Below are positions 8,828 to 60,786 of a stretch of DNA of 64,000 nt, piece by piece (the first letter of the stretch is position 1; each line of letters opens with the position of its first letter). Under the pieces are notes generated by a model. That model made no database searches. It saw only the letters and a program-made list of their open reading frames with translations, and had not been told where the DNA came from. The position numbers were made by a program, and so were the translations under genes. The stretch is from Octopus vulgaris (lineage: Eukaryota): assembly GCA_951406725.2 (NCBI GenBank), contig OX597823.1:63922001-63986000 (forward strand), given 5' to 3'.

Positions 8828-8928
8828 TTAATTCAAACATGAAAACACAAAGAGAAAACACAACAACACGAGGATGTGGAACAAGTATAGTGTTATTGGA
8901 TGCTCAGGAAAGGAAAGAAAGAAGGAGG

Positions 8929-8963
8929 ATTTAACATTTCGAGCGGAGCTCTTCGTCAGAAAC
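8929..8963 (-). ncRNA. Minimal type I hammerhead ribozyme motif in a ~215-bp TA-flanked repeat (8826-9041)
   Basis: Minus strand: gttt CTGACGA a gagc tcc gctc GAAA tg tt aaat; a second copy of the element at ~56800-57010. Confidence 0.65.
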
Positions 8964-10869: not shown

Positions 10870-10910
10870 ATGATGTTAAATGATGATGATATATATATAT
10901 ACATACATAT

Positions 10911-12118
10911 ATGTGTATATGGGTGTGTGTATATGTATATATACAACTAAATGGATTACAGGCAAAAGTAAGAAAGAAATATGAATGTGCGATCTTTATT
11001 CAGTGTTGTCCCCATATCCTAAATTTAGTTCTTTCACAATCATGCTCTGCTATGAAAGAATGCAAGATATTTTTTTCTACTATAAATGGACTCGGTACAT
11101 TTTTTACGAAATCACCGAAAAGGGCTAATGCATTAGATAACATTGTTAAAAAAAGATTTCCAAAAGCAACAGCAACTAGATGGAATTACTCCTCACGTCT
11201 TATTATTATTACCACAAAGGAAAATTATAATTTCATAATCAGCCTTTTTGAACACATCATTGAAAATCCTGAAGCATGGGATGATACCACCATAAATTCA
11301 GCAATTGGATTCTTACACACATTAAAAGCTCCTGATTTCTTATTTTTGTTAGAAGTATTCAGTGACATTTTTTCTTTTACTGACGTCTTATTTAACATAC
11401 TTCAGAGTAAAAGTCATGACATAGTGTATTGTAAAGAGCAAATAGATAAAACTAGAACTGTACCCGAAAACAAACTTGATAATTTTTCAATCTTTTATGA
11501 TAGGTTAGGGGAAAAACATGGAGTCGATGCAGGAATCGGAATTCAGAGATCCAAGAATATATCTATTGAGCCCCAACGACATTATAAAATGCTTTATAAC
11601 AAAATTATCAGTACAATAGTTGACCAAATAAAAGCACGATATTCATCCTTAGAAGAGTTTAAATTCATGGAACTTTTGAATTTTAACAAAGTTGATGAGT
11701 ATTGCAAACAATTTCCTGTGGACTCTTTAGATTCTTTAAGAACAACTTATGGCAGATTTTTTTATGTAATACGATTACAAAGTGAGCTCAATGTGATGTA
11801 TTCAATGAAAGATTTTAAAAAACCAAGTGTAAGTCATTTAATGAGTTACATTTATAGCAGTGATCTTGTTGAAGCTATGCCAGAACTCTTCAATCTGTGC
11901 AAGTTGATTTTGACAATTCCGTCTACCACTGCTTCTGTAGAGCGATCCTTTTCTGCATTAAGTAGAATTAAAACATACCAAAGAAATGCGACAGGAGAAA
12001 GAAGACTGTCTGGGTTAGCACTAATGTCAATTGAAAAAGATTTATTACAAGAATTGATGAAAATGTGATGGATATATTTGCCCAGAAAGATCAAAGAATT
12101 GAATTAATTTATAAATGA
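10911..12118 (+). pseudogene. hAT transposase C-terminal half
   Basis: CCPHILNLVL (CxxH), ATRW, and the hATC dimerisation domain LILTIPSTTASVERSFSALSRIKTY...RLSGLALMSIEK; the N-terminus is microsatellite-derived; terminal DIFAQKDQRIELIYK is out of frame. Confidence 0.92.
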
Positions 12119-14296: not shown

Positions 14297-15310
14297 ACAT
14301 AGGATTGGCAATGAGTATAGTGAAGAATTCCAGGTAGAAGTAGAACCTTGGGGTCCACCAAAATTCAGCCCTCAGTCCCCTTTTATTCATCATAGTCCTC
14401 CAGGCAATAACAGAGGAATTCAAGACGGGTTGCCCCTGGGAGCTGCTCTATGTTGATGACCTGGCCTTCATAGCAGAATCACTACCGGAACTAGAAAAGA
14501 AATTTCGTGTGTGGAAGCTAGGTTTTGAATCAAAAGGCCTTAGAGTAAATGTAGCAAAGACCAAAGTTCTAGTAAGTAAGAAGATGAACTCATCACACAC
14601 CCACTCAGGTAGGTGGCCCTGCTTGATCTGTAGAAAAGGTGTTGGTAGAAACTCCAGATGTACCCAGTGTAAGCTATGGATGCATAAGAGGTGCAGCAAC
14701 ATCAAAGGAAACCTAACCAAGCAGATAACTTTCATGTGCAGCAGATGCACAGGGGCAATAGACACCACAGATACTCAGAAAACAGATTCCATCACACTCC
14801 AGGGGGAGAAACTAGAAGTAGTTGATAGTTTCTGCTACCTAGGTGACCAAGTTAGTTGTGGAGGCGGATGCTCAGAGTGTCACTACTAGAATACGAATAA
14901 CCTGGGCAAAGTTTAGAAAGCTTCTATCCCTACTGGTGACAAAGGGTCTCTCGCCCAGAGTGAAAGGTATATTGTACGACGCATGTGTGCGAACTGCCAT
15001 GCTTCACAGTAGTGAAACATGGGCTGTGACTGCAGAGGACATGCGTAGGCTTGAAAGAAATGAAGCTAGCATGATCTGCTGGATGTGTAATGTCAGTGTG
15101 CACACACGACAGAGTGTAAGTGCCCTGAGTGAAATGCTGGACATAAGAAGCATTGGATATGGCATGCAAGAGAGACGTCTGTGCTGGTATGGTCATGTAC
15201 TACAGATGGATGAGGAGAGATGTGTGAAGAAGTGCCACTCCCAAACAGTTGAAGGAATCAGGAGTAGAGCTAGACCCAGGAAGACATGGGATGAGGTGGT
15301 CAAACATACA
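14297..15310 (+). mobile_element. RTE-clade LINE, 5'-truncated and frameshifted (RT C-terminus, Cys-rich insert)
   Basis: PWELLYVDDL (YADD-like), GLRVNVAKTKVL, CLICRKGVGRNSRCTQCKLWMHKRC, FCYLGD, LYDACVRTAMLHSSETWA, RPRKTWDEVV. Confidence 0.93.
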
Positions 15311-16949: not shown

Positions 16950-18330
16950 CTGGATTTAAGCATATGTTATGCGTGTTGATTTTTTTGCATTTGGACCTAC
17001 GGAAGAATTTAAAGGTGCAATAGAACCTGTGACATGTAGAGGAAGCTTTGTGTTGTTTATTCAGTAATTACGGTGAAATATGCGCTAATATTTGGAGGGC
17101 TTCTTTTAGGCATAGACCATTTTTGGATTGCTGGCTTTGGTATGGGACCCTGAAATCTATTATGGCCCAGGATATCCTATATGGTACCTTTCTATTTATT
17201 AGATGGTGTATGTGATTAGCTAGGGAGGTAGATTTGCTAAGCTCCTCATATTTAAATGTGATTATATGTGCAGAAAATCTCTGTTTAAAGTTAATAGTAG
17301 ACCCAATATAGTAGTTAGTAGAATTATGCAATTTGTTGTGTACCATGCATTTGTATACTACATTTAACCTTCTGCAGTGGGCTTGCAATGGACTTTTGGT
17401 CATAGATCAGCAGTTGCAGCTATCTGTCCTACATGGGTTATTAGTGGAAGATGCAGTACTATTTATGGAGAAATTAAAATTACAGGTGGTATTAGGGGAT
17501 TGGCTCATATTATTAATATTATTACTATTATTGTTATTAGTAGCAGTAATGGTATTATTATTATCAATAATAATATGAGTAGTAGTAGTGGTGGTCATAT
17601 TAGTTATTAACATTAGTATTAGTGGTGGTGCTATTAGTATCAACATTCATCTCAGCTGCACTTCAATTTTTGTTGTAAGTGGGGATGTTTGTATTTTGGT
17701 TAATTCTGGTTGTAGTGTTTGGGTTGCAGGTGTGGTGTATGCCATCAATATCAGTATTAGTGTTTGTGTGGCTTTGACCTATGCTATGATTATATGTATT
17801 CAGGTAGGAGGAATTAAGTTTACACCTATTGGAAGAGATAACAATAGATTCTATATTGGGTGGAGCAGAGTAGGATAATTTTTCGGGTAGATCTAATGAA
17901 GATTGAATGATATTTATGGTGACGTGGGAAGTTAGAGTCTAATATTTGAAAGAAGGTTTTGGCTAAGCCTTTAACGTTTAACATATCATGAAAATTGTTC
18001 GAAAACAATTATTCGAAAAGCAATTATTCGAAATATTATTTGTGTACTTGATTTTTAATTTTATCATTTTTGTTTAAATAAAATTAAAAAATTTAGAATT
18101 ATTAACATTTCGTTTAATTGCCCTTTTGAATAATTTTCATTCATACAATTTTCCATTCGAATAGATGTTTTTTAAATAGCTATTTACGAATGATTGTCTT
18201 GAACAATCATTTTTGAACAATGTTCATATAATCACATTTAAAGCAAATGGGGGTGTAAACCAGGGAATTGATCTTCCCATGCTTTTGTTGGGTAATATAG
18301 GGGAAGTATAATCTATAGTGTTTGTTAGAG
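16950..18330 (-). pseudogene. Penelope-like retroelement: RT thumb, Asn/Thr-rich linker, Cys motif and GIY-YIG endonuclease
   Basis: SIPWFTPPFALNV|KGLAKTFFQILDSNFPRHHKYHSIF; CNC..PLQAHC; NVVYKC...YYIGSTINFKQRFSAH...STSLANHIH...LCLKEAL. Confidence 0.88.
17982..18233. mobile_element. MITE with long repetitive TIRs (Mutator-like) interrupting the Penelope ORF
   Basis: Inverted atgaaaattgttcgaaaacaattattcg / cgaatgattgtcttgaacaatcatttttgaacaatgttcat; 8-9-bp TSD acgtttaa/acatttaa; removal restores the reading frame. Confidence 0.75.
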
Positions 18331-18451: not shown

Positions 18452-18886
18452 ACTATAAACCTAGTAATCAGTTGATTTAGCAAGCAGGACCTCATCACAG
18501 TGATGGGGTGACCTGGTATGCAATAATTCTGTCAAGTGGAAGGTCTTGAAATGCCATGCATCCTCTCCTGGTGACCTTACAAGTTTGCTAGCTTATGGTA
18601 TCCAGAGCTTTCAACTGGTAGCACTTGCATTTGCAAGTTGTTTGCAAAATATATGAGCATGTGTGGCTGTGCGGTAAGAAGGTTCCTTCCCAAACACATG
18701 GTTCTGGGTTCAGTCCCACAGCATGGCACCTTGGGCAAGTGTCTTCCATTATAGCCTTAGATTGATCAGAGCCTTGTGAGTGGATTTGGTACATAGAAAC
18801 TGAAAGAAGCCCATCATATATATATATATATGTGTATATACATATATATATAAAGCAAATAAGTAACAAGGATGTCCAGGTATTAG

Positions 18887-18972
18887 TGCATTACGGCCGT
18901 TTCAAGCAGCTTGATTTAATCATTCAATACAAGCAATACATCTATTTGAAAAACTCGCTTTCCTCAGATGCA
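18887..18972 (-). ncRNA. Type I hammerhead ribozyme with enlarged loop II
   Basis: tgcat CTGAGGA aagc [~50 nt] gctt GAAA cggccg TA atgca: intact core, paired stems I and II, palindromic stem III, GUA site. Confidence 0.8.
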
Positions 18973-19969
18973 TAAGACCATATAGGTTTTCAACATACAG
19001 GATATTCCATTATAATTGCTTAGCAAAATTTTTTTTATCAAAACTAGAGAATAAAAGAATTACATGCTTATTGCTGTTATTGAAGCAGAATGAATTTAGG
19101 GAGAAAATACCCAAAGCCTGCTATAATTTGGAGTGGCAGAAGAGAATAACAATGGGGATCAAGAAATAGTAATATAGCTATATTCTTTCTCCTTAGCACA
19201 ATCAAAAGACCCAACTGCTGCAAGTATTCTATATCCACTTAGAATTAAAACCACTGGGAATTGACAATTAAGTTCTTACAACTGGTGATAAATTAATTAA
19301 TGTCAGATACTCTTCCCTACCCCTATTTTACTGTGACTATAAATTCATCATGACTACATAAAAGGACATGCCCCAGAAGATGCCAGCAAGAAAATGGTAT
19401 ATATCCAGAAAGAGGAAGGGCAAGGGTGACTTAAACTATATTATCATAATGTATTAAAAGGGGCCTAAAATAAAAACAAAGGTGGTTACAATGAGATCCA
19501 AGTGGGCATTAAGGGTACAGGGGGAATATTGTATATCCAAATTTAGCAAAATTTATATATTATTATATTTTGTGTATTAAATGATAAAATTTAAAAAGGG
19601 ATTTAAGGACCAAGTAAGAGAAGGATAGATAAACCAATCTAAGCCCTAAAGAATGGGGTACTCTTGTATAAAATAGAAACCTCATAATGCTTCCTCCTTG
19701 CATGTTGTTAAGGTAGTCACGATAAAACTATTCAACAATGGCCCCATAATTAAATTCAAATTTCATTCGAGAAGGAGTACACATTTGCTATTGACTGAAT
19801 ACCAAAGATTAAGGGCAAAAGACAAAATAATCAATTCTATAATACCTATGATACTGGACTGACTTGGTGCCTCAACTTAAATACCTAATTCAACTAAATC
19901 TTAATTATTTCCTATACGCATACTTATATATATAAAATCAAAATAAGCAACAAGGATATTCAGAGGTAA

Positions 19970-20056
19970 TGCAGTACGATCGTTTCATGCGACTCCATTT
20001 AATTGAACAATGCAATCATTACATCAATTTAAAATGTAGAGCAATCTTCAGCTGCA
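19970..20056 (-). ncRNA. Type I hammerhead ribozyme with enlarged stem II
   Basis: tgcag CTGAAGA ttgctctac...atggagtcgcat GAAA cgatcg TA ctgca. Confidence 0.75.
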
Positions 20057-20212
20057 CAAAAACATAGAATTTAATTAAATTTGAAGGACACAGTAGTATA
20101 ATTTTATCCTGTTGGTAAAACATGTTCTTTGTCTATCTCCTTATCCTCTTGGAGATTTTGGATAAAATTATACTAATGTGTCCTTCAAATTTAATTAAAT
20201 TCTATGTCTTTG

Positions 20213-20299
20213 TGCAGTTGAAGATTGCTCTACATTTTAAATTGATGTAATGATTGCATTGTTCAATTAAGTGGAGTCGCATGAAACGATCGTACTGCA
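20213..20299 (+). ncRNA. Hammerhead copy in the right arm, core C3-to-U variant (TTGAAGA)
   Basis: tgcag TTGAAGA ttgctctac...gtggagtcgcat GAAA cgatcg TA ctgca. Confidence 0.6.
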
Positions 20300-20415
20300 T
20301 TACCTCTGGATATCCTTGTTGCTTATTTTGATTATAATCACCTTCTTTTTAAATTGTATGGATATATCATACTAAATTCTGGTGCCTCAACTTAAGTACC
20401 ATATTCATCTGAATC

Positions 20416-20478
<63 letters not shown>

Positions 20479-21829
20479 TTGTGCTTGTGTTTGTTCCTCC
20501 ATCATCGCTTGACAACTGGTGTTGGTGTGTTTCCATATTGGCAAAAGAGATTGATAGAATGAGTACTAGGCTTAAAAAATAAGTCCTGGTGTCGATTTGT
20601 TTGTCTAAAACCCTTCAAGGCAGTGCACCATCATGGCCACAGTCAAGTGACTGAAACAAGTAAAAGAATATATATGTACCACACACACACACACACTCAT
20701 ACTCACACATATAAACAACATATATATAAGTTTTTTTTTATGTGTGTGAGTGTGCATGTGTTTGTTTGTGTATGTGTGTGTGTGTGTGTATATAAGGGTT
20801 GTGTGTCACATGTTGGTATATTGAAATCTTTGGTGGGATGGTAGTATATGTATGTATGTGCGTCTTGATGTGTTAGTAAGTGTATGTGCGTTTGCCTGTT
20901 CATATATATATAAGTATATATGTACAGGTGTGTGTCTGTGTGTGCATGTGCATGCATGTGTCTCTGTGTATCATTTGCTCACTTTTATCTAAAGAAAAAA
21001 ATATTGATATATGGAGACAGAAATTTGTAATTTTCTGAAGTAATCTCATGTCTTTAGGGAAGGTCATAACATTTGTCACCTGTACATGTTTCCTCAGTGA
21101 TTTTCCAGACACACACCATTACCTTTCTTAGGTGTATTAGTAACACAAGGTTAGCAGTAATCTGTCTGGAAATTGCAATGTCTAAAACCAAAACCAATTT
21201 TTCTAAGATAAAACATATCTTAGCTCTTATCTTTTACTTGTATCAATCATGAGACTATGTTTTCTACTAAACCCTGAGCTGACCGAAAAACTTTGAAGTT
21301 GATTTGGCAGACAGAAAACTTCTTCCTCTACTTCCACCTATCTATTCTTGCTCCAAATTCTTATGAAAGCATCCACTCTATCATCCCCTCCCATGATCCA
21401 CTGTCCACAGCTTTTCTTATATACACCTTTTTGTTCTTTGAGAGTTTGTTCCAGCAGCCCATCATTACTTTCTATTATCTTCTCCATTGCAAGACACCTG
21501 TGATTGTCCTTCTAGCATACTTTAGCCTTTCAACATCTGACATACAGCCACACATCTCCACACTCTCCTCCTAAATACTTCTTAATAGTGCCAGCTTTTT
21601 CCTCACATTTCCTCCTTTTTTGTTCTGTTCTGTCTTGCAAATTACATGGCAATCTTACTGGTGCCGGTGGCTTTAAAAAAAAACACTCAGTACACTCTGT
21701 AAAATGGTTGGTATTAAGGAGAGCATCAGCTGTAGACACCATGCCAAAGATGACACTGGGGGCATTAACAGAGCCCTGCACATCAGAGATTCCCTGTCAA
21801 GCCATCCTACCCATGCCAGCATGGAAAGT

Positions 21830-22650
21830 GGATGTGTGGTAAGAAGTTTGCTTCCCAACCACATGGTTCTGGGTTCAGTCCCACAGTTTGGCACCTCGGG
21901 CAGGTGTCTTCTGCAATGACTTCAGACCAACCAAAGACATGTGAGTGGATTTGGTAGATGGAAACTGAAAGAAGCTCATCATATATATATGTCTGTATGT
22001 GTCCTTGTGTTTGTGTTTGTCCCTCAGCACCAGAATGGTCACAGTCTAAAGACTGAAACAAGTGAAAGATAAAAGATATATATATACATATATATATATT
22101 AGTAGTGAGAATAAGTGCTCACCACTGCGTTGGTGGATAAGTATTCTTTATTTAAGTTGAAAAGGCATGCTTGAACAATTGCGAAGAGCTCTTCACATGA
22201 AACCATTGGTTGCCTTGTTAACCCACAAAGGTTGCTCTCTTAGCCCACAAATGAAAAACAACTATAAATAGGAGTGTGGTAAGAAGTGTGCTTCCCAACC
22301 ACCTGGTTCTGGGTTCAGTCCTACTGCATGGCACCTTGGGCAAGTGTCTTCTACTATAGCCTTGGGCTAACCAAACCCTTGTGAGTGGATTTGGTTGATG
22401 GAAACTGAAAGAAGCCCTTGATATATATGTGTGTGTGTGTGTGTTTTTTCCCCCACCATTGCTTGAGAACCGATGTTGGTGGGTTTATGTCATCATAACT
22501 TAGTGGTTTGGCAAAAGACACTGATAGAATAAGTACTAGGCTTACAAAGAATAAGTCCTGGGGTTGATGTTCGACTAAAGGCAATGCTCCAGCATGGTTG
22601 AGGTCAGATAACTGAAACAAAAGCATAAAAGAAAGAATAAAGAATAAATA
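21830..22650 (+). mobile_element. Two SINE family A copies
   Basis: tgtggtaagaag...ggttcagtcc...ccttgggcaagtg heads at ~21835 and ~22275. Confidence 0.85.
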
Positions 22651-25589: not shown

Positions 25590-26480
25590 CATATGCCCCT
25601 GGGAGATCCTCTATGCTGATGACTTTGCTCTAATAGCTGAGTCACTGTCAGAACTAGAGAAGTTTCAGGTGTGGAAGTAAGGTCTAGAATTGAAGGGCCT
25701 TAGAGTGAATGTAGCAAAAACCAAAGTTTTAATAATTAGGACAGCAGACAGATCACAAATGCCTTCAGGTAGATGGACCTGCTCAATCTGTAGAAAAGGT
25801 GTAGATAGAAACTCCATAAGATCTACCTGGTGTAAGGTATAGATACATAAGGGGTGCAGTAATATCAAAGGAAGGGTAACTGGGAAGATAGTTTTTGTGT
25901 GTGGCAAATGCACTGTAAGTGTGCAGAAAACAGCTTCTGTCACATTCCAGGGATAAAAACTAGAAGTTGTTGATAGCTTCCATTCCCTAGGTGATCAAGT
26001 CAGTAGTGGGGGTGGATGCTCTGAGAGTGTAGCTGCTAGAATAAGAATAGCCTGGGCAAAGTTCAAAGAGCTCCTACCTCTGCTGGTAACAAAGGGCCTC
26101 TCGCTCAGAGTGAAAGGTAGACTGTATGATGCATGTGTGCAAACTGCCATGCTACACGGCAGTGAAACATGGGCTGTGATTGCTAAAGACATGTGTAAGC
26201 TTGAAAGAAATGAAGCTAGTATGCTCCGCTGGATGTGTAATGTTGGTGTGCATACACAACAGAGTGTAAGCGCCCTGAGAGAAAAGTTGGACATATGAAG
26301 CATCAGATGTGGTGTGCAAGAGAGGCGACTGCACTGCTACAGTCATGCGTTACATATAGATGAGGACAGCTGTGTGAAGAAGTGTCACACCCTAACAGTG
26401 GAGGGAACCTGTGGAAGAGGTAGAACCAGGAAGACATGGGATAAGCTGGTGAAGCACAAACTTCAGACATTGGGCAAAGT
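25590..26480 (+). mobile_element. RTE-clade LINE fragment
   Basis: PWEILYADDF; KGRLYDACVQTAMLHGSETWA; GRGRTRKTWDKLV; homologous to the 14.3-kb copy. Confidence 0.92.
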
Positions 26481-59237: not shown

Positions 59238-59971
59238 CACACACACACACACACATATATATAAACATATATATATATATACATACACTGATATATATAT
59301 ATATATATACTTATATATAACTTATATATATGTATATATGTGTGTGTGTGAATATATGTATATGTGTATGTGTGTTTATGTGCATGTGTATATATATGTT
59401 TATATCTACAAATGCACACACATATTTATGTATGTGTGTGTGTACATATAGGTATATGTGTGTATATATAGGTATATGTGTGTATATACACACACACACA
59501 TATTTAACTTCATGTAAATACATTACTGCTCTAGCTTTTAGTGTATGCTTCTTTTACAGATATATGATCCACTGACGATATATATATATATATATACTCA
59601 AGTATGTATAAACTTATCATGGCTTCTATGCACTTTTCTCATGTCTTGGTATATTTTGTCATAGGTGAACAGGTCTTCTGCAACACCACATATACAAGTC
59701 AGTCATCTCTTGTTTGAGATGCAGCATCAACAGGTAAGCCTTCACCACTTCATCCTAAGGCTTGCTTGGTTTCACTCTTCTGCATATTCTACTACCTTGC
59801 ATTGCTAGATGCTACCTTCCTTCTGCACCAATCATCATCTATATGCATAGCTTGCTTGTACAAATGCATTTTCCTCTCTTGTACATTGCACTTCATTCCT
59901 CTTGTACAACATTATCCTCTCAGCTTATTTTTTACTCCAGCATTACTCATTTTTTACTCATGCACACTAAG

Positions 59972-60076
59972 ATGGATAGTCTGTGGTCCAGGGTACATGT
60001 TGACAATACTGGACCAGTAAAAGATGCATACTACTTGGACATTGCCGATAGCTTTACCAAGTGGTCAGAAGTTTGT
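59972..60076 (+). mobile_element. Gypsy-type integrase fragment
   Basis: WSRVHVDNTGPVKDAYYLDIADSFTKWSEV resembles the rve core N-terminus. Confidence 0.8.
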
Positions 60077-60257
60077 TAGGTACAGTCAGCCTTAAATATT
60101 ACATATCTATTGGAGCAGATTACTTTCATTTTTGTTCTTTAGTCTTATTCTGTATTCAAAGCTCATATCTAGCTACCATGCACCATTGCAGTTCTAACAC
60201 CTGTGATATACAACCTGCCCTTCAATCCAAGGGAAAAGACCTTCACTGCCTGCTGTG

Positions 60258-60786
60258 ATAACGAGTATTTGCCACCCTACATATATGTATCTTATGAATA
60301 TGTTCTTAGCATTCTCGAAGTTTCAGCTCGGCATTGTATCTATTGCTGACTGTAAATGCACCTGTGTGTGATATTTGAAAAATTATAACATATAATGATG
60401 GGACACGTGTTATCTTGTCTCTGAATTATAAGTTAGTTGTTTAGGCCGGTTACTGACGAGAATTTGCCTGGTGGATAATATGGTCTTGCTAAATTATCTA
60501 TTAAAAGATGGCAAGTAATATTATTTGTTAAAGAAATTTGAAACCATGGTATAACCATTAAATAACAGGGTAAAGGCTTTTATTTTTCATCTAATTCGAA
60601 ATTTGCTATTAAATTGTGGTTTTTGGCCGTGTTGGTTGCTATTTCTAGCATGTAAAAATTACCTGTTAAAGGGTAATTTTCTATTTTGAAATATGAATAT
60701 GTTGTCTGTTGACTATTTATACATGCTGGGCCACTGGTGGTAATATTTATAACGAGTATTTGCCACCCTATATATATGTATCTTAT
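60258..60786 (+). mobile_element. About 490-bp unit bounded by 38-bp direct repeats, containing a hammerhead
   Basis: ataacgagtatttgccacccta(c/t)atatatgtatcttat at 60258 and 60749. Confidence 0.75.
60448..60556 (+). ncRNA. Type I hammerhead ribozyme with enlarged loop II
   Basis: ggtta CTGACGA gaattt [~68 nt] aaattt GAAA ccatgg TA taacc. Confidence 0.78.

What the first reader, a model, noticed from the sequence alone, without database searches (positions are those of the whole stretch)
18887..20299. Covarying hammerhead ribozymes with a large loop II and palindromic stem III
Seen: 18887-18972(-) tgcat-CTGAGGA-aagc..gctt-GAAA-CGGCCG-TA-atgca; 19970-20056(-) tgcag-CTGAAGA-ttgc..gcat-GAAA-CGATCG-TA-ctgca, with its inverted copy at 20213-20299(+); and 60448-60556(+) ggtta-CTGACGA-gaattt..aaattt-GAAA-CCATGG-TA-taacc. 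The three variants differ in sequence yet keep the core, stem I pairing, a 6-bp palindromic stem III and a GUA site. Known: Penelope-like elements and retrozymes carry type I hammerheads whose palindromic stem III supports dimeric cleavage, usually with a short stem II. Inference: this is a selected family of self-cleaving RNAs with an unusual 50-70-nt loop II domain, in non-coding TA-anchored retroelements.
Basis: partly seen in the sequence, partly recalled or inferred. Interest (0 to 1): 0.8.

Follow-up and report, generated by a model that had tools for sequence, protein, structure and literature searches.

The report
Long-armed hammerheads of Penelope-like repeats
Four copies of a hammerhead RNA motif, predicted to cut itself only when two copies pair up, sit near the ends of repeated elements that are likely Penelope-type jumping genes; the kind is known, but one arm is predicted to fold into a structure two to three times the usual length, and cutting is untested.

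Summary
Observation confirmed: four type I hammerhead motifs (4 in the window, 0 in 2000 shuffled windows). They form two families: H1/H2/H2inv are homologous; H3 is unrelated in sequence. The context fits Penelope-like element (PLE) ends: (TA)n flanks, a 177-bp inverted 5'-truncated arm, a shared short end, and an extra tail on the other arm. The cores resemble published Hydra-clade PLE hammerheads, but no PLE reading frame was tied to them. The 'large loop II' is predicted to be a folded 57-80-nt extension of helix II. For H2 the predicted best dimer fold is the double hammerhead. Domain II lies outside published search descriptors and Rfam misses it, but two plant PLE hammerheads with 29-36-nt loops are a precedent. 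Covariation rests on two lineages (3 double changes), and most laid H1 relatives carry U4C. The key dimer paper (Lunse 2017) was not available. The scan noted PLE-type hammerheads before in other genomes (4 notes). Verdict: new variant of a known kind, probably inert at this locus.

The parts
18887..18972 (-). H1 type I hammerhead motif; 57-nt domain II; palindrome CGGCCG; predicted cut between 18892 and 18891
18852..18886 (-). 3' flank of H1 to the element's short end, followed by (TA)n; homologous to the H2 flank
   Evidence: (D4)
18973..19840 (-). repeated body upstream of H1, T-rich on the hammerhead strand; no protein match found; likely 5'-truncated near 19830
   Evidence: a contig spans 18867-19362; overlapping pieces reach 19842; negative
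19826..19905 (+). tail sequence X (clear homology 19865-19905) at the other end of the H1 insertion, followed by TA-rich DNA
   Evidence: (D6)
19933..20109 (-). inverted, more 5'-truncated arm holding H2; ends at the same short end as H1, beside a short TA run
   Evidence: I1: 177 nt, 97%
19970..20056 (-). H2 type I hammerhead motif, intact core, 58-nt domain II, palindrome CGAUCG; predicted cut between 19975 and 19974
20110..20336 (+). plus-strand arm; the 50-nt spacer 20110-20159 belongs to it, since other copies run through 20116-20318
   Evidence: table 8, X17 records 20-21
20213..20299 (+). H2inv, copy of H2 with C3U; most laid relatives have C at 20218
20337..20420 (+). about 85-nt tail beyond the short end, then (TA)n(TG)n; joined to the hammerhead in another copy too
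   Evidence: (X15 record 15 spans 20232-20395)
60448..60556 (+). H3 type I hammerhead motif of a second family; 80-nt domain II; palindrome CCAUGG; predicted cut between 60551 and 60552
60258..60786 (+). 491-bp unit holding H3, bounded by 38-nt direct repeats (60258-60295, 60749-60786) that end in TA-rich DNA: a partial tandem or a long target duplication
16990..18300 (-). neighbouring decayed PLE reading frame with C-terminal GIY-YIG endonuclease, same strand as H1/H2, separated from H1 by about 550 bp including (TA)n; context only, link not shown

Best explanation
These are type I hammerhead motifs near the 3' ends of two repeated elements that are likely Penelope-like retroelements or their non-autonomous derivatives, and they are predicted to cleave after GUA only as palindrome-paired dimers. 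Shown in the sequence: the core, stem I, the palindrome, the repeated nature, the inverted arm, the shared short end, the tail and the (TA)n flanks. Inferred: in a tandem precursor RNA of the parent element, two like copies exchange strands, form an 8-bp helix III and cut, possibly helped by the element's protein. Also inferred: reverse transcription primed at TA-rich DNA from two start points gave the short end and the tailed end, and priming on both strands gave the inverted pair. Domain II is predicted to be an extended hairpin (H1/H2) or a two-hairpin branch (H3) on stem II, so the usual loop 1-loop 2 contact is not expected. The copies here are likely inert: H2 and H2inv would pair into a 177-bp duplex in a read-through RNA, H2inv has C3U, and H1 and H2 have mismatched palindromes and stem I ends.
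For: 4 motifs against 0 in 2000 shuffles. Three double-sided compensatory changes between H1 and H2, one each in stem I, stem II and the palindrome; 94% of cells paired against 20-44% when slid. For H2 the unconstrained two-molecule minimum-energy fold is the double hammerhead, -42.2 kcal/mol against -34.6 for two monomers, and the monomer optimum is not a hammerhead. Inverted 5'-truncated arm, tail at one end and (TA)n targets are the PLE features described in PMC8557442 and PMC11167929. H2's CUGAAGA-U-UGC...GCA-U-GAAA mirrors Penelope-5_HM (ctgaagat tgcc...ggca tgaa), and H3's ACCAUGGU mirrors Hydra-1_oBim (acca a tggt) in File S2. Both H1 and H2 regions are heavily repeated in DNA runs of two species labels. 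A PLE remnant lies about 550 bp away on the same strand.
Against: No RT or endonuclease was tied to any motif: 0 Pfam hits of note in 12 frames and no hit at E<5 with a Hydra-type profile that finds the neighbour at 1e-51. No match to published octopus Naiad or Hydra consensi by short-motif search. The tail is about 85 nt against the published 30-40. For H1, H2inv and H3 the double hammerhead lies 13, 8 and 6 kcal/mol above the best dimer fold. Domain II of H1 folds no better than shuffles (57% fold as well). About three quarters of the laid depth at 18966 carries U4C. The direct repeats around H3 also fit a target duplication. Covariation has only two independent lineages.
Confidence: 0.78

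Rival explanations
1. They belong to non-LTR retrozymes: short non-coding units that are cut out by tandem hammerheads, circularise and are re-inserted by PLE enzymes. H3's 491-bp unit would be a monomer plus 38 nt.
For: 491-bp unit with a 38-nt direct repeat, within the 51-972-bp range of the 2026 preprint; no reading frame found; that preprint derives retrozymes from PLE pLTRs, so this overlaps with the best explanation.
Against: No unit holds two hammerheads in direct tandem in the window; H1/H2 show the inverted-arm and tail pattern instead; the H1 body is at least 850 bp without an internal repeat.
Confidence: 0.12
2. The motif is a catalytically dead relic kept as a structural or protein-binding signal near the RT start site; the long domain II and the stems, not cleavage, are what is conserved.
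For: U4C in most laid H1 relatives; in Anolis Poseidon, hammerhead mutants insert normally in vitro and cleavage needs protein; misfolded optima for 3 of 4 copies.
Against: Two unrelated families keep the whole core, the palindrome and GUA; most H2-family copies keep C3.
Confidence: 0.07
3. Chance matches in AT-rich repeat DNA.
For: A core-plus-palindrome pattern alone matches widely: 121 matches in 120 metagenome loci.
Against: Only 1 of those 121 has stem I >=5 and none has both stems; 0 hits in 2000 shuffled windows.
Confidence: 0.01

Closest known systems
Hydra-clade PLE hammerheads (Craig et al. 2021, PMC8557442, File S2; e.g. Penelope-5_HM, Hydra-1_oBim)
   Same: type I; mostly 4-7-bp stem I; extra base flanking stem II on both sides (U...U or G...U); short near-palindromic helix III; near the 3' end; (TA)n targets
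   Different: their loop 2 is 3-10 nt (domain II about 12-26 nt) against 57-80 nt here; helix III there mostly has a 1-3-nt loop, here a perfect loop-less 8-nt palindrome; no reading frame linked here
Metazoan PLE min-HHR and small-palindrome variants (Cervera and de la Pena 2014, PMC4209133)
   Same: palindromic helix III for dimeric cleavage (8-10-nt palindromes in Aedes, D. willistoni, Saccoglossus); C3U rows occur in their alignment; opposite-strand pairs 100-700 bp apart; mostly dispersed single copies
   Different: their descriptor limits stem II to 3-7 bp and loop 2 to 3-10 nt, so these motifs would be missed; no G10.1-C11.1 pair here
PLE-X1_sMoe and PLE-X1_sTam hammerheads of spike mosses (PMC8557442, File S2)
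   Same: PLE hammerheads with an enlarged domain II (9 bp + 36 nt, about 55 nt; 29-nt loop), flagged as deviating
   Different: plant, endonuclease-less, rDNA-targeting elements; no 6-nt palindrome; no sequence likeness seen by eye
Non-LTR retrozymes (PMC7229834; bioRxiv 10.64898/2026.07.22.740005)
   Same: type I hammerheads in AT-rich non-coding repeats; U.U at the base of helix II in axolotl HHR_Amex2
   Different: defined by tandem units each with a hammerhead and by circular RNAs; neither seen here

Membership tests
Type I hammerhead ribozyme | core CUGANGA, GAAA, UH joined by helices I-III, helix I open | tested here: met
   H2inv has C3U
Type I hammerhead ribozyme | match to an Rfam hammerhead model | tested here: not met
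   no hammerhead family up to E 10 in 18860-20400 (3 other matches) or 60296-60770 (2 other matches); expected with a 57-80-nt insert
Type I hammerhead ribozyme | self-cleavage after H17 | not testable with these tools
   only contigs, no raw RNA reads
Type I hammerhead ribozyme | covariation of the helices | tested here: inconclusive
   3 double changes, 12 of 500 shuffles, two lineages
PLE pLTR hammerhead | palindromic helix III that favours a double hammerhead | tested here: met
   palindromes in 4 of 4; dimer optimum is the double hammerhead in 1 of 4 (H2)
Penelope-like element | inverted 5'-truncated copy next to the element, tail at one end only | tested here: met
   tail about 85 nt, longer than the published 30-40
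Penelope-like element | RT plus GIY-YIG reading frame upstream of the hammerhead | tested here: inconclusive
   none found; copies are truncated, only a Hydra-type profile was on hand, and Pfam gave E 0.012 and no hit on two intact PLE-like proteins
Penelope-like element | dispersed multi-copy repeat in microsatellite or AT-rich targets | tested here: met
   (H1/H2 only; copy status of H3 not tested)
Hydra clade of PLEs | clade-specific RT/EN motifs | tested here: not met
   no Hydra-type protein match in 18980-19930 (two tblastn rows at E about 0.1 only); RNA core likeness only
Naiad clade of PLEs | N-terminal EN, no canonical hammerhead, likeness to published cephalopod consensi | tested here: not met
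   short motifs of H1-H3 cores absent from the supplement (line breaks could hide a match); 3' ends of Naiad_Obim, _Ovul, _Esco, _Adux differ by eye
Non-LTR retrozyme | two or more tandem units each with a hammerhead | tested here: not met
   window only; no genome held
Non-LTR retrozyme | circular RNA of unit length | not testable with these tools
   no raw RNA reads

The most novel reading that the evidence does not exclude
At least two abundant PLE lineages in this animal carry hammerheads whose helix II has become a conserved 57-80-nt folded module (protein-binding, dimer-docking or switch). Such ribozymes fall outside every descriptor checked and outside Rfam, so a large class of genomic hammerheads is uncounted and some PLE families reported as lacking a hammerhead may hide one.
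Probability: 0.22. Interest if true: 0.65.

Novelty: new variant of a known kind. Interest (0 to 1): 0.4.

Why it matters
What PLE hammerheads do is still open: cleavage is slow, protein-assisted and not needed for insertion in the one reconstituted system. A high-copy family with a large added domain gives many natural variants for a covariation test and a simple deletion experiment. It also shows that counts of genomic hammerheads made with short-loop descriptors or Rfam miss whole families. It does not add a new ribozyme class or, on present evidence, a host function.

Tried and rejected
Rfam: whole window (150 of 199 rows shown, mostly microsatellite-driven miRNA matches) and two local scans: no hammerhead row. 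No own genome is held. Metagenome pattern scan: 120 loci read of about 2200 estimated, 121 matches, 1 with stem I >=5, none with both stems, no BLAST or nhmmer likeness to H1-H3. That one (L083) appears to lie in an open frame of GC-rich DNA and was rejected as chance. Covariance model R1 from 3 copies found only its own members, 8 further rows at E >=0.49, and not H3. Word-index protein search with the endonuclease remnant: 21 candidates, none significant. No RNA holder is listed as RNA on record; contigs of two guessed-RNA runs cover the motifs but cannot show strand, ends or expression. The idea that these are the Naiad 'half-core' motifs was not borne out. An extended stem I seen by eye in H1 is not kept in H2. 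Whether 18973-19840 is a decayed reading frame of another PLE clade stays open. Lunse et al. 2017 is not held.

Full report
Observation. The four motifs are at the coordinates given. A descriptor asking for the core, stem I of at least 4 Watson-Crick pairs, stem II of at least 3 pairs (a flanking mismatch allowed), a 6-nt palindrome and UH finds exactly these 4 in the window and 0 in 2000 block-wise dinucleotide shuffles. A stricter first version found 2 of the 4 against 0 in 100 shuffles. As a further control, a core-plus-palindrome pattern gave 121 matches in 120 metagenome loci; 1 had stem I of 5 or more and none had both stems. Domain II is 57, 58, 58 and 80 nt.

Structure. On the three-copy alignment 94% of cells pair against 20-44% when partners are slid, and three pairs change on both sides: stem I G-C/U-A, stem II U-A/A-U and the palindrome centre A-U/G-C. 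Twelve of 500 shuffles reach this, and only two lineages are independent, so it is suggestive, not proof. Domain II is predicted to be folded: a long imperfect hairpin in H2 (-11.4 kcal/mol; 5% of 300 base shuffles fold as well), a strong hairpin region in H3 (-17.9; 0.7%), but nothing beyond shuffles in H1 (-6.5; 57%). With stem II imposed, H3 becomes a two-hairpin branch. No monomer folds as a hammerhead at its optimum. For H2 the unconstrained dimer optimum is the double hammerhead (-42.2 against -34.6 for two monomers); for H1, H2inv and H3 it lies 13, 8 and 6 kcal/mol above the best dimer.

Other copies. No genome is held, so I laid contigs of 4 of 24 listed runs on 18700-20450 (only 40 of 341 difference rows are shown). 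Summed depth is about 70,000-1,260,000 over the H2 region and 460-27,000 over H1 and its upstream body, against 18-57 for the single long pieces listed from the two DNA runs. This is no copy number but shows heavy repetition. At 20218, 133,351 of 135,808 depth units in X1 carry C, so C3U is particular to this copy. At five H1 positions (18943, 18923, 18922, 18929, 18908) the majority letter restores or strengthens a predicted pair of domain II; these letters equal H2's, so some of those contigs may be H2-like copies. Against selection of the core, 2,719 of 3,571 units (38 contigs) in X1 and 2,599 of 3,511 (40 contigs) in X4 carry U4C at 18966; H1's canonical U4 may then be CpG decay (inference). 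H3's copy number was not tested.

Context. H2 and H2inv lie in 177-nt inverted arms, 97% alike, 50 nt apart. Other copies run through the spacer into the plus arm and on into the 85 nt after it (table 8). So the plus arm is the longer copy with a tail, and the minus arm is a more truncated inverted copy ending at a short end that H1 shares; both outer ends abut TA runs. The same tail sequence occurs on the plus strand at 19865-19905, at the far end of the H1 body, so the H1 insertion likely has the same two-ended layout. Inverted truncated copies, a tail at one end and (TA)n targets are described for PLEs in PMC8557442, and PMC11167929 traces the tail to two RT start sites, with both DNA strands cut and extended. 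H3 sits in a 491-bp unit with 38-nt direct repeats. A separate decayed PLE frame at 18300-16990(-) has 1597 relatives at E<=0.001; the longest carry RT and endonuclease and resemble the Hydra-clade consensi by eye. No frame was tied to the hammerheads, but Pfam gave only E 0.012 and nothing on two intact relatives, and no profile of other clades was on hand. The window looks like octopus DNA by its microsatellites and SINE-like repeats; this is recalled, not tested.

Mechanism. Most likely (0.78) these are PLE terminal hammerheads that cut after GUA as double hammerheads in tandem precursor RNA, perhaps with help from the element's protein as shown for Anolis Poseidon. Cleavage, dimerisation and PLE parentage are inferred. 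At this locus activity is unlikely: a read-through RNA would form a 177-bp duplex over H2/H2inv, and the same-strand pair H2-H1 (about 1.08 kb apart) mismatches in the palindrome and at the first pair of stem I.

Comparison with what is known. Palindromic helix III, dimeric cleavage, C3U rows and opposite-strand pairs are all in PMC4209133. The flanking U...U and the ACCA/UGGU helix match Hydra-clade entries of File S2 in PMC8557442. What differs is domain II: the 2014 descriptor allows a loop 2 of 3-10 nt, the 2021 core search a spacer of 7-17 nt, and Rfam returns no hammerhead here. Precedent exists in two spike-moss elements with 36- and 29-nt loops. Eight paper searches listed no paper on long-domain-II hammerheads of animal PLEs or cephalopods; the squid genome paper reports only 235 Rfam hammerhead-1 loci. 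The library lacks most subscription papers, and Repbase/Dfam were not searched.

What I read. PMC4209133: parts 1-2 of 4 of the text, a search and part 2 of 3 of supplement 2; supplement 1 could not be searched. PMC8557442: passages, four supplement searches and parts 1, 2, 25, 52, 53 of 59. PMC11167929: passages and the whole main section. bioRxiv 10.64898/2026.07.22.740005: parts 1-2 of 5, no supplements. PMC7229834, PMC6765202, PMC6466107, PMC6155905, PMC6962438: passages. Lunse et al. 2017: title only, from reference lists; not held, and it may already describe such variants. Structure figures in the supplements are not readable as text and may hide longer helix II cases. Hammerhead numbering and the role of loop 1-loop 2 contacts partly rest on general knowledge.

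Earlier notes. Four notes on other genomes call PLE-type hammerheads ordinary; three concern minimal forms, and I did not check them. Searches by sequence, by place and for cephalopod words returned nothing.

Verdict. A real, well-supported motif; a new variant of a known kind whose one distinctive trait is a 57-80-nt folded domain II in two unrelated families. Interest 0.4.

Noticed in passing
window 16990-18300 (-): Decayed PLE reading frame with C-terminal GIY-YIG endonuclease, Hydra-like by eye; starts beside (TA)n; no hammerhead found at its 3' end.
   Followed up: partly
window 8928-8963 (-): Short-loop minimal hammerhead relic (CUGACGA-A, stem II GAGC/GCUC, GAAAUGUU, likely a decayed ACGU palindrome) inside a roughly 220-bp unit between two (TA)n runs: an ordinary PLE-type end.
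   Followed up: partly
window 59759-60257 (+): Frame resembling an LTR-retrotransposon integrase core by eye (recalled motif; no Pfam hit), ending where the H3 unit begins.
   Followed up: partly
window 18663-18835 and 21828-22000: Very high-copy SINE-like repeat, 82% alike between the two places.
   Followed up: no
window 14344-14886 (+) and 25957-26295 (+): LINE-like reverse transcriptase fragments; the first has Pfam RVT_1 (E 1e-7) followed by a weak PHD-finger match.
   Followed up: partly
window 10890-12065: 392-residue stop-free frame that looks like a hAT transposase C-terminus by eye (strand label lost in the cut output).
   Followed up: no
window 19933-20336: The 177-bp inverted repeat would give a long duplex RNA if transcribed, a possible A-to-I editing substrate (inference).
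   Followed up: no
L083:291-382 (+): Core-plus-palindrome match with a 10-bp stem I but no stem II, apparently within an open frame; judged chance.
   Followed up: yes
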